Under the pieces are notes generated by a model. The model saw only the letters and a list, made by a program, of their open reading frames with translations. It was not told the origin of the DNA and did no database searches. Positions 29,743-33,609 of a stretch of 64,000 nt of DNA are shown here, in pieces. How positions within the stretch are numbered: the first letter of the stretch is position 1; every line of letters begins with the position of its first letter. Source of the DNA: Octopus vulgaris (taxonomy: Eukaryota); assembly GCA_951406725.2 (NCBI GenBank), contig OX597818.1, positions 100,502,001 to 100,566,000 of the forward strand, read 5' to 3'. Made by a program: the position numbers and the translations under genes.

Positions 29743-30959
29743 TAGTATATTAGCGTGCTTATAATTAGTATTAATATTATTATAGTCTTATTATCATTAT
29801 ACTGATCATATTTATCGTTATGAATATTAGTTTCATTTTGAATATAAGCTTAATGTTTCATCTGAAATAGATTTTACTACAAATCGTAGCTAGTCGAGAG
29901 GTAACATATAATTTGTTACATTTTATGAAATTCAGTGTTGGCACGGAATTCAAACTGTATAAATGAATGGAGCCTGTCTACTGGAAATGAGAAAGATTGT
30001 GCATTTAAGCATATTTTCGGAGCTGGATCACGTTAGGTTGACTAAATATCATTCATTCCCACTTTTGTAAGTATACAACCGACAGAATTAATAGGAAAAT
30101 ATATTAAATAGATACTCCTATGCATATTTTAGGACAAAAACGAAATCAATATTCTCTGTTACCAAAAGCTCTGTTACTACAAAAGCCACCCGTTAATACG
30201 ATTATTAACAATGTATTCTACGCATTTGCAGTTTATGTAGAATATTGGCTGTTTGCCCAGCTTGCGTAATGTCACCAGCAATGTGGAGAGCATAAAATGC
30301 ATTCAAAAATGTAGAAATAGCAAGGCAGAAACCATATACCTGCAAATGCACTAAATTTGGATATTTCTAAAACTGCACTACTGCTAGGAAGGATGGAATT
30401 ATAGAGAGACAATTTTTGCCTGCAGTACGGTATGCCAGATTAACTATAGTCATGATAGTGGATAGATTTCGCTCCTGATATTTTTAAAAGATCTTCAGAT
30501 TCACCCATAGTGTTAGAATAACAAATGCTAAAATTCATCTGCTAGGGAAATCCCCACTGACGCGAAACATCGCTACATCGATGTCACCTGATGTTTATAC
30601 GTCGTGTACCTGCTGGTTACTGCAATGACACGGATATTAGAAGAAAAGTTTAAAAAAATAAATAACCAACTTAATTACTATTGTTACCGAACATTGAAGA
30701 AATAATCCAAACGTTGTCAGTAGCAAGCGAACGTTGACTAATTGACTGCAATGTACAAAACGGTTATCTTACTGACTATATATATATATGTATATACATA
30801 TATACATATATATATATATATATATATATATATATATATATATATATATATATATATAGACACACATATACATATATATATATATATATATATATATATA
30901 TATATATATATATATATAAGAAAAAAGGTTTGAAAATGCAATTTAAACGATGTTTATTT

Positions 30960-31000
30960 ACTTAACCGGTTTCACTCTTTGGTAAAAGATTGTCAAAAGT
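30960..31000 (-). ncRNA. Minimal type I hammerhead, U3-A8 covariant core (left arm)
   Basis: Reverse complement of 32835-32875. Confidence 0.62.
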
Positions 31001-31569
31001 TACATTTAAGGAAACATTGAATAATATGGGTTCAAAAAAAGTTTTTTACATAATTGTCACATTGAATATTATGCATTCAAAAAAGTTTTTTACATAATTG
31101 TCACATTGGATATTATGAATTCAAAAATGTTTTTTTATACATAATTGTCACATTACATGTATAAATATAGTGTTTGGTAACAGAGAAGTTCAATAGTGTG
31201 ATGAGAATATTTGGGAAAATTTGGCAGAAAAGGATAAAACAAATATATTATTGGGGATTGGTTGCGTTAATTATTGGTTGTCGCAAATTGTCACATTACA
31301 TGTATATATATACAATCTTTGGTATATATATACAGCGTTTTGACAGCAAAAATTAAAATGGATTTTTTGTACATCTCAGAATATTTTAAGTATGTTTTTA
31401 CTGACCTGTCAGTATTAGCAGAAAGGCTGAACTGAGAGAACAGAAGAAGTAGCCAATTGGTGTATACTTCCCCTTTATGCATGAATGATTTTGGGGTTAT
31501 CAGGAGGTTAGTATGCGGGTGTGAATAGATGTGTCCGTGCCTGCTGGTCAGATAGCGTCTGTTTGTCAC

Positions 31570-32720
31570 ACACATATATATACACAGAAACACACACACG
31601 CACAACAACACACACACACACACACACATAGCATACAAACACACACCACATACAAACAACACACACACACACAGAACACACACACCCACACACAACGCAC
31701 CCACATATATCACAAATACACACAGCACACAAATATAACATGTATCTATATATAACATACACAGATATATAACACACATACACACACAACACACACACAC
31801 ACACACACACACACACACAACACACGCACACATACATACATAATATAAATATCACACAAATACACCTAGCATATATATACACACATACAATACACACATA
31901 CAGCATGTAAGTAATATACATACACAATATATGCATGCAATATACATACGCAATACATACATATAATATATATATATATATAGACAATGCATATACATAT
32001 ATACACATATACATATAAATAGTGTTTACATACACATACATAGATGTACCACATATACACACAACACACATACATACAATGCATACACATACACGTACGC
32101 ATACATATAATATATATATACACACACACACATAACATACATACACACACAATGCATACATATATATACACGCAATGCATATACATGTATTCATGCATAT
32201 ATAGCACACATACAATATACATATATACAGTGCACACATACACACAAATATATACACTTAATTGTACACGTACATATACAATACACATACATACAATATA
32301 CATATACACAATGCGCATGCAAATAATGTACATGTCTATACACACATAAACATGCAAATAAATATACACACACACACATACACACACACACACATATATA
32401 CACATATATATATATATATATATACACATACATACATACATACATACATGCACATACATATATTTTTTCACACACATACACACACATATATATATATAAA
32501 AAATTCACCCCCCCCACACACACAAATTACAAACCTATAGCGTACACACTCAAATATATCTCTACATGCCGCACACACACACAAACAAAGTACTAACATA
32601 TACACACATACCATGCATATACACACACAACACACACACACACATATATATATATATATATATATATATATATATATATAAAAACAGATACATATGTAAA
32701 TACATACACACGTACACAAT
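31570..32720. repeat. Irregular A/C-rich (CA/TA/TACA) low-complexity tract
   Basis: Direct reading; strongly G-poor on the + strand. Confidence 0.9.
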
Positions 32721-32834
32721 GTGTGAGCATTTGAATGCATAATATTCAACTTTTTTGAATGCATAATATTCAATGTGACAATTATGTAAAAAACTTTTTT
32801 TGAACCCATATTATTCAATGTTTCCTTAAATGTA

Positions 32835-32875
32835 ACTTTTGACAATCTTTTACCAAAGAGTGAAACCGGTTAAGT
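32835..32875 (+). ncRNA. Minimal type I hammerhead, U3-A8 covariant core (right arm)
   Basis: ACTT-TTGACAA-tCTTTT(acca)AAGAGt-GAA-ACCGGT-T-AAGT. Palindromic stem III ACCGGT, GUU site. Confidence 0.62.
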
Positions 32876-33609
32876 AAATAAACATCGTTTAAATTGCATT
32901 TTCAAACCTTTTTTCTTATATATATATATATATATATATATATATATATATATATATATATATATATATATATATATATATTAGAAGAAATGAGGTAATC
33001 AGAAGATTGGATGGTTCATATTTACAGATATTTATTTATATATTACATTTTTTACATATATATATCATTCAGATCATATCATTCAGATCATTAGCGCTTT
33101 CTCCCATTCTAGTGGGGGTTTCATATCAAAATAATTCCTTTGTGGGGAATTTTAATCATTTTATAGAGTTAGTTTCGTAGTGGTGGGGAGGAACAAGACA
33201 GCACAAGAGGGTGAATTGGATGAGGAGGAAGTGAGAGAGAGAACATGTGTGTATGTGTATGTGTGTGTGTGTGTGTGTGTGTGTGCGTTTGTATCTGATG
33301 CTAAAGGGAAAGAGGGGAAGGGAGAGGGAACAAGAAGGATTTCCTTTGGCCTGCTGGACCCCAAGGGAGTTCTAAGAATTTCAGCTTTGTCCATTTTCGT
33401 GTCACTGAGTGTGTGTTGGTGGGTAGGCAGGCCATAAATTACACCTTTTATGATTTTGAGGATGGTCAAATGCCATTTGGGGTCTAAGAACTCTTTCTAC
33501 TTTGTATGATCGTTTTGTGGTGGTGTGTGTGTGTGTCTCTGTGTGTCTGGAGAAGGGGAGAGAGACACAAAGAGAAAAGGGACAATAAAAATAAAAATAA
33601 ATATAAATA

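What the first reader, a model, noticed from the sequence alone, without database searches (positions are those of the whole stretch)
30918..32917. Two identical outward-facing U3-A8 hammerheads in 170-bp inverted arms
The arms look identical, which indicates a very recent event. Each encodes ACTT-TTGACAA-stem II-GAAACCGGTT-AAGT, with the known natural U3-A8 covariation and a U.U first pair in stem II that recurs in the unrelated 41-kb ribozyme. Both outer ends abut (TA)n. An inverted partial terminal repeat is a known Penelope-type architecture, but here it encloses 1.66 kb of non-coding sequence.
Basis: partly seen in the sequence, partly recalled or inferred. Interest (0 to 1): 0.72.

Follow-up and report, generated by a model that had tools for sequence, protein, structure and literature searches.

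The report
Head-to-head Penelope retroelement ends with hammerheads
This is an ordinary young insertion of a Penelope-like jumping gene, in which two shortened copies of its tail end, each with a known variant of a predicted self-cutting RNA, sit head to head in a TA repeat; its sister insertions nearly always pair two different fixed ends from one parent copy, which likely shows how the enzyme copies into both broken DNA ends at once.

Summary
In detail: 169-bp identical inverted arms, each with a U3-A8 minimal hammerhead motif, both abutting (TA)n. The 1.66-kb interior is not captured DNA. It is the 3' UTR of a 5.8-kb Penelope-like element (RT plus GIY-YIG; 666 exact ribozyme copies genome-wide), 98% identical to sister copies. 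The locus is a 1.8-kb and a 0.17-kb 5'-truncated copy joined head to head, the family's commonest layout. U3-A8, U10.1-U11.1, inverted copies and (TA)n targeting are all in print.

The added value is family-wide. Inverted insertions pair one tailed with one tail-less 3' end in 43 of 43 sister pairs, and in 35 of 35 pairs of a second family. The two arms share a parent haplotype (0.22% vs 1.56% substitutions). In 10 of 41 pairs the tail-less arm is the longer, which excludes simple fold-back there. One insertion carries the same 1-kb host stretch in both arms. This fits priming of both target ends from two fixed sites of one donor's RNA. The window copy is the lone exception (both ends tail-less).

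The scan noted the two-ends rule before on other DNA; print describes it qualitatively. Cleavage and assembly were not tested by reads.

The parts
30777..30918 (.). Left (TA)n target microsatellite; target-site duplication cannot be read
   Evidence: sequence
30919..32721 (-). 5'-truncated copy (1.8 kb) of the 3' UTR of the Penelope-like element, 3' end outward, tail-less end type
   Evidence: 98.1% over 1803 nt to L092; maps to the last 1.8 kb of unit L031; end type
30960..31000 (-). Minimal type I hammerhead motif, U3-A8, palindromic stem III; predicted cut between 30964 and 30963
   Evidence: activity not tested
31014..31154 (-). 44-bp tandem repeat (3.1 copies) of the element's 3' UTR; 2-5 units in sister copies
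31567..32680 (-). Degenerate (TG)/(TA) microsatellite-like part of the element's 3' UTR, shared with sister copies
32722..32747 (+). Inversion junction: about 10 nt of sense-strand element sequence from the breakpoint, then a short duplicate of the start of the right arm (templated filler)
   Evidence: sequence against L031
32748..32916 (+). Second 5'-truncated copy (169 nt), 3' end outward, tail-less end type
32835..32875 (+). Minimal type I hammerhead motif, U3-A8; predicted cut between 32871 and 32872
32917..32981 (.). Right (TA)n target microsatellite

Best explanation
The locus is two 5'-truncated copies (1.8 kb and 0.17 kb) of the 3' end of a young Penelope-like retrotransposon, joined head to head inside a (TA)n repeat, and was likely made in one event in which both cut DNA ends primed reverse transcription on RNA from one donor copy. 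Shown: the architecture, the interior's origin, the autonomous parent (ORF1, RT plus GIY-YIG ORF2, 2-kb 3' UTR, hammerhead motif, 43-nt tail), and in sister insertions the pairing of one tailed with one tail-less end, the shared haplotype of the two arms, and that either arm can be the longer. Inferred: the GIY-YIG domain cuts both strands of (TA)n; the two RTs of one ribonucleoprotein start at two fixed U/A-rich sites 43 nt apart downstream of the ribozyme; each cDNA stops early; the two cDNA ends are joined with short templated filler. The window copy has two tail-less ends. Most simply one tail was later deleted between its flanking TA runs, or the short arm was copied from the first cDNA; I cannot tell these apart. 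The hammerhead is carried along because it lies within 85 nt of the priming site. It is predicted to cut weakly and only as a dimer with a same-strand copy (tandem transcript or in trans), not with the inverted neighbour.
For: Interior equals element 3' UTR. Parent with RVT_1 domain, GIY-YIG hits on homologues, C-x4-C-x2-C linker and tandem period 5821. One tailed plus one tail-less end in 43 of 43 other inverted pairs (L049 dropped), 4 of 4 multi-unit pairs with both ends seen, and 35 of 35 pairs of the 41-kb family. An overlapping count from coordinates alone gave 49 mixed pairs, 1 tail-less pair (this locus) and 1 complex cluster. Genome-wide exact ends are 223 tail-less and 286 tailed, the latter including internal tandem junctions, so independent choice would mix only about half. 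Arms of one insertion differ at 0.22% of sites vs 1.56% between insertions (28 of 45 pairs had 300 or more shared sites; 0 of 10,000 permutations as low), replicated at 0.13% vs 1.42% in 14 of 17 further loci. The tail-less arm is longer by over 100 nt in 10 of 41 pairs, which copying of one cDNA cannot give. The complex C3 cluster is one 12.5-kb insertion whose two arms both carry the same 1.1-kb host stretch and the same older junction, with one tail-less and one tailed outer end. In vitro an anole PLE cuts and extends both strands, starts at two sites that bound the tail, and is predicted to be a dimer (PMC11167929).
Against: The window copy itself breaks the one-tail rule, so the twin-site model does not directly explain it. 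In 5 of 30 pairs the two arms differ by one 44-bp unit, which may mean two template molecules or two repeats of a tandem transcript. Gene conversion between arms after insertion could also equalise haplotypes and was not excluded. Arms of equal length (same RNA end) are only weakly enriched: 3 of 41 vs 0.75 expected, maximum 5 in shuffles. The anole study saw no strand difference in start site and found ribozyme cleavage dispensable in vitro. The monomeric hammerhead fold is not the predicted minimum-energy structure (z 0.14).
Confidence: 0.7

Rival explanations
1. Fold-back: one cDNA is primed, its 3' end snaps back or switches to its own strand and copies the element's end a second time. This would give identical arms and, if the first end was tail-less, two tail-less ends as in this locus.
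For: This locus has two tail-less ends and hairpin-like templated filler at the junction. The tailed arm is the longer in 22 of 41 pairs, which is compatible. Self-priming was proposed for rotifer Penelope palindromes (PMC3846280).
Against: Cannot give the 10 of 41 pairs whose tail-less arm is longer while the shorter arm carries a tail. The right flank here is not an inverted copy of the left beyond the TA run. Templated filler also occurs at junctions of ordinary pairs. Plausible for this one locus, not for the family.
Confidence: 0.2
2. Two independent RNAs from different donor copies each prime one end of the break and the cDNAs are ligated.
For: 44-bp unit counts differ in 5 of 30 pairs.
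Against: Shared subfamily haplotypes within pairs, unit counts equal in 25 of 30 vs 39% expected, same host stretch in both arms of one insertion, and strict tailed/tail-less pairing. A weaker form (two RNAs from the same donor, held in one asymmetric particle) is not excluded.
Confidence: 0.07
3. One reading: two terminal inverted ribozyme arms mobilise or enclose an unrelated non-coding cargo (MITE-like or PLE-mediated capture).
For: Identical 169-bp inverted termini at TA look like terminal inverted repeats. Capture between pLTRs is reported in rotifers, and host DNA was carried in one sister insertion.
Against: The interior is contiguous element 3' UTR. Arm lengths vary continuously from about 50 nt to over 5 kb between insertions, so they are truncation products, not fixed termini.
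Confidence: 0.02
4. Assembly artefact (fold-back read or mis-polished inverted repeat).
For: Perfect arm identity; no contig in four public runs spanned the junction (repeats are skipped there, so this proves nothing).
Against: Unequal arm lengths, unrelated flanks (left flank single-copy), a unique templated junction, no N nearer than 18918-19017, and dozens of like insertions with different breakpoints. A local polishing error that removed one tail is not excluded.
Confidence: 0.03

Closest known systems
Inverted 5'-truncated copies with an optional tail in endonuclease-bearing PLEs (Craig et al. 2021, PMC8557442; Arkhipova et al. 2013, PMC3846280; passages read)
   Same: Inverted 5'-truncated copy next to the 5' end, partial tandems, 30-40-bp tail often at only one end, (TA)n bias, junction palindromes.
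   Different: Tail here is about 43 nt (about 70 nt in the 41-kb family). The one-end rule is counted here (43 of 43, 35 of 35) together with arm haplotypes. This locus lacks the tail at both ends.
Minimal hammerheads of metazoan PLEs, U3-A8 variant (Cervera and De la Pena 2014, PMC4209133, results and discussion read; Perreault et al. 2011, PMC3088659, passages read)
   Same: Type I, 4-bp stem I, palindromic stem III, U3-A8 core (about 1,300 hits in Schistosoma mansoni), dual motifs on opposite strands 100-700 bp apart; a natural U10.1-U11.1 start of stem II is also reported.
   Different: U3-A8 and U10.1-U11.1 occur together in one motif; I did not see that combination in the passages read. 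A sister family in this genome has U3-A8 with G-C or G.U at that pair.
Poseidon element of Anolis carolinensis, in vitro (Frangieh et al. 2024, PMC11167929; main text read, methods in part)
   Same: Two internal RT start sites bounding the tail, both target strands cut and extended, AT-rich targets, predicted dimer.
   Different: Different clade and single ORF. That study did not pair the two sites with the two ends of one insertion.
Neptune-type PLEs (as defined in Craig et al. 2021)
   Same: C-terminal GIY-YIG with CCHH-type cysteines, CX2-5CxxC linker, (TA)n targets, hammerhead near the 3' end.
   Different: N-terminal region is a separate ORF1 overlapping the RT ORF in the -1 frame (the Fig. 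1 legend allows a frameshifted ORF1 for some PLE types; the figure itself was not visible). Long microsatellite-like 3' UTR.

Membership tests
Endonuclease-bearing Penelope-like element | RT with C-terminal GIY-YIG endonuclease in the autonomous parent | tested here: met
   776-aa ORF in L031: RVT_1 above cutoff; GIY-YIG-like motif visible at the C terminus; many full-length homologues carry PF01541. Pfam did not call GIY-YIG on this protein itself.
Endonuclease-bearing Penelope-like element | Tandem or partial-tandem units forming pseudo-LTRs, and inverted 5'-truncated copies | tested here: met
   Tandem period 5821; inverted pairs with variable breakpoints.
Endonuclease-bearing Penelope-like element | [quoted passage not shown] | tested here: met
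   Met for the family (43 of 43 other pairs); this copy has no tail at either end.
Neptune clade | CX2-5CxxC linker before the endonuclease | tested here: met
   C-x4-C-x2-C in ORF2; definition.
Neptune clade | RT phylogeny with named Neptune references | not tested
   No named reference sequences among the hits; assignment rests on the motif.
Minimal PLE hammerhead (type I) | Core C3/U3-U-G-A-N-G8/A8-A, GAAA, U16.1-H17 | tested here: met
   UUGACAA, GAAA, U-U17; position 17 varies only to A in public contigs.
Minimal PLE hammerhead (type I) | Palindromic stem III able to pair between two copies | tested here: met
   8-nt palindrome forms an 8-bp self-duplex, -10.1 kcal/mol.
Minimal PLE hammerhead (type I) | G10.1-C11.1 pair opening stem II | tested here: not met
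   U.U here. This is a conserved but not obligatory feature: a natural U10.1-U11.1 hammerhead is reported.
Minimal PLE hammerhead (type I) | Self-cleavage | not testable with these tools
   No raw RNA reads available; needs an assay.
MITE or TIR DNA transposon | Fixed-length terminal inverted repeats shared by all copies | tested here: not met
   Arm lengths vary from about 50 nt to over 5 kb.

The most novel reading that the evidence does not exclude
Penelope-like elements insert by obligate asymmetric twin priming: one protein dimer on one RNA primes both ends of a (TA)n break, one subunit at the tail end and the other 43-70 nt upstream, so each head-to-head insertion records both subunits. 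This would explain the tail, the inverted copy and the shared haplotype by one mechanism, distinct from L1 twin priming, and would hold across unrelated PLE families.
Probability: 0.5. Interest if true: 0.65.

Novelty: new member of a known kind. Interest (0 to 1): 0.38.

Why it matters
The locus itself is an ordinary, probably inert insertion. Its family is young, abundant and has intact copies, so it gives numbers on a question the field lists as open: how PLEs build their tandem and inverted insertions (Craig et al. 2021). The pairing rule, shared haplotypes and arm-length data give a sharp prediction for the existing in vitro PLE system. A mechanism that writes DNA into both ends of a break from one RNA would also matter for retroelement-based genome writing.

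Tried and rejected
Rfam scan found no hammerhead: minimal U3-A8 motifs fall outside the models at gathering threshold, so this is not evidence against. Monomer folding gave no hammerhead-shaped minimum, as expected for a dimer-type motif. Sequencing runs: no RNA holder listed; contigs of four runs covered the arm but not the junction, uninformative. An empty-site test by reads could not be run, so presence/absence remains open. Equal arm length as a sign of one RNA end: too weak to use. Flank-duplicating fold-back for this locus: rejected, flanks unrelated. The C3 cluster first looked like tail-less/tail-less plus tailed/tailed exceptions but resolved into one insertion that obeys the rule. 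Dropped rows: L049 (tailed arm runs on into another unit, outer end not found), L041 (left arm lacks the anchor), the C26 pair (right end not found), L143 (three hits); for arm lengths also L036, L077 and the window; 17 of 45 pairs lacked 300 shared sites for the haplotype test. Loci L185-L201 were picked as mixed pairs, so they count only for the haplotype replicate, not for the end rule. A first ORF1 comparison used a wrong frame and was redone. A strong frameshift-stimulating hairpin was not found behind the slippery site (-6.4 and -0.8 kcal/mol; pseudoknots not modelled). [quoted passage not shown]

Full report
Observation. The window is AT-rich, microsatellite-laden animal DNA from a 2.8-Gb genome (probably a cephalopod, my inference, not tested). 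Arms 30919-31087 and 32748-32916 are exact reverse complements over 169 nt with 1660 nt between them, and both abut (TA)n. Each carries, reading outward, a minimal type I hammerhead motif with a U3-A8 core, a stem II that opens with U.U, and a palindromic stem III. The 37-nt core occurs 666 times exactly in the genome against 0 for the reversed control. All 40 scored copies of 911 candidates match the 169-nt arm at 100%, so arm identity marks a young family and does not date this insertion.

What it is. The interior is the element's own sequence. Window 30919-32721 aligns at 98.1% over 1803 nt to sister copy L092 (12 mismatches, 10 gaps) and to many others. In locus L031 this sequence is the 3' UTR of a 5821-bp tandem unit: ORF1 (480 codons stop to stop), ORF2 (776 codons, RVT_1 above cutoff, C-x4-C-x2-C linker, GIY-YIG-like C terminus), about 2 kb of partly microsatellite-like UTR, 44-bp repeats, the hammerhead motif and a 43-nt tail. 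Of 6273 candidates, 1726 proteins matched ORF2 at E <= 1e-20, many with GIY-YIG domains, and many genomic copies keep the 776-codon frame open. The locus is therefore a 1.8-kb and a 0.17-kb 5'-truncated copy joined head to head by 26 nt of templated filler. This is the family's common layout: among the first 100 listed ribozyme sites I count 29 outward-facing pairs, with breakpoints from about 50 nt to over 5 kb.

The ribozyme. U3-A8 minimal hammerheads and dual motifs on opposite strands were described in Schistosoma PLEs (PMC4209133; results and discussion read). Natural U3-A8 and a U10.1-U11.1 start of stem II were reported in 2011 (PMC3088659; passages). A second family in this genome (57% identical in the RT ORF's first 250 aa) has U3-A8 with G-C or G.U at that pair and a different palindrome in stem III, which supports the fold. 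Position 17 varies between U and A in public contigs, as the cleavage rule allows. The palindrome can pair two copies, but the two motifs here are on opposite strands, so a transcript through the locus would hold one ribozyme and its antisense, not a dimer (from the sequence). Rfam missed the motif and the monomer fold is not favoured. Activity is untested.

How such insertions form. 3' ends come in two types, with or without the tail. Of 45 inverted pairs scored, 44 were mixed and one, this locus, had two tail-less ends. Dropping L049, whose tailed arm runs on into another unit, leaves 43 of 43 others. Four of four multi-unit pairs with both outer ends seen, and 35 of 35 pairs of the unrelated 41-kb family (1897 exact copies), are also mixed. 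A count from listed coordinates, overlapping the first sample, gave 49 mixed, this locus, and one complex cluster. With 223 tail-less and 286 tailed exact ends genome-wide (the tailed count includes internal junctions), independent choice would mix about half. The arms of one insertion differ at 27 of 12,213 sites (0.22%) against 1.56% between insertions, in the 28 of 45 pairs with enough overlap, and share subfamily variants; 14 of 17 further loci gave 0.13% vs 1.42%. In 41 measurable pairs the tailed arm is longer in 22, the tail-less in 10, and 9 are within 100 nt. The 10 cannot come from copying one cDNA. The complex cluster on C3 is a single 12.5-kb insertion in which both arms carry the same 1.1-kb host stretch and the same older inversion junction, with one tail-less and one tailed outer end, so both arms derive from one donor's read-through transcript. 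The best model is that both ends of a cut (TA)n prime cDNA on RNA from one donor at two fixed sites. It matches the anole Poseidon protein, which in vitro extends both strands, starts at two sites bounding the tail and is predicted to dimerise (PMC11167929; main text read).

Results against this reading. The window copy breaks the rule; later loss of a tail between TA runs, fold-back copying of a tail-less cDNA, or a local assembly error could each explain it. The 44-bp unit count differs between arms in 5 of 30 pairs, which allows two template molecules. Conversion between arms after insertion is not excluded. Equal-length arms are only weakly enriched (3 of 41 vs 0.75 expected). No reads confirmed the junction.

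Comparison with what is known. Inverted 5'-truncated copies, a tail often present at only one end, and (TA)n bias are standard for endonuclease-bearing PLEs (PMC8557442, passages; PMC3846280, passages). The same review lists the formation of tandem and inverted structures as unresolved. The element works like, and by the features tested is, an endonuclease-bearing PLE; Neptune membership rests on the linker motif only. Recently active Penelope families are reported in an octopus genome (PMC13282606, passages). A 2026 preprint on retrozymes and PLEs (10.64898/2026.07.22.740005, passages) does not mention tails. Searches found no paper stating a counted one-tail rule or twin priming for PLEs; older subscription papers, figures and supplements were not seen. 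Earlier notes of this scan report the two-fixed-ends pattern on other DNA; I had measured it here before looking.

Side finding. ORF1 and ORF2 overlap in the -1 frame with U UUU UUA in frame, 29 nt before an AUG. The same heptamer, spacing and AUG recur in the second family, whose ORF1 is 43% identical over 275 aa. The heptamer is intact in 24 of 28 family-1 and 12 of 12 family-2 junction matches in fetched loci, some of which overlap. All 12 homologues displayed begin with Met near this point. Programmed frameshifting or reinitiation are both open. A frameshifted ORF1 is mentioned for some PLE types.

Verdict. Real, correctly seen, but ordinary at the locus: a new member of a known kind. Interest 0.38, carried by the family-level evidence on mechanism and not by the ribozyme or the interior.

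Noticed in passing
window 41085-41290: Palindromic head-to-head stub of a different PLE family (C3-G8 hammerhead, 1897 exact copies, about 70-nt tail on one arm only). In many sister pairs the inversion point falls within about 10 nt upstream of the ribozyme core, suggesting a fixed RNA 5' end or RT stop there. The ORF behind the tandem copy in L143 may be Hydra-like (recalled motif, not tested).
   Followed up: partly
L031:3593-3653 and L115:2926-3004: ORF1/ORF2 overlap with a conserved in-frame U UUU UUA heptamer 29 nt before the ORF2 AUG in two PLE families; candidate -1 frameshift or reinitiation signal.
   Followed up: partly
L183 and L184 (G000:C3:155246440-155258936): 12.5-kb inverted insertion in which both arms carry 1.1 kb of host DNA and an older insertion: PLE 3' transduction with duplication.
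   Followed up: yes
L126-L130, L177-L181: Inverted insertions with more than one unit per arm, forming inverted repeats of 5 kb or more per side.
   Followed up: partly
window 35460-35615: Another short inverted structure next to (TA)n with 23-bp tandem repeats in each arm; family not examined.
   Followed up: no
window 35941-36146 and 37283-37494: Two inverted copies (92% over 255 nt including TA) of a common dispersed repeat, probably a SINE, 1.1 kb apart.
   Followed up: no
window 37951-38022: tRNA match in Rfam (58 bits), possibly a tRNA-derived SINE head.
   Followed up: no
window 41880-43000: Broken fragment that looks like a LINE reverse transcriptase; a similar frame lies beside L031.
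   Followed up: no
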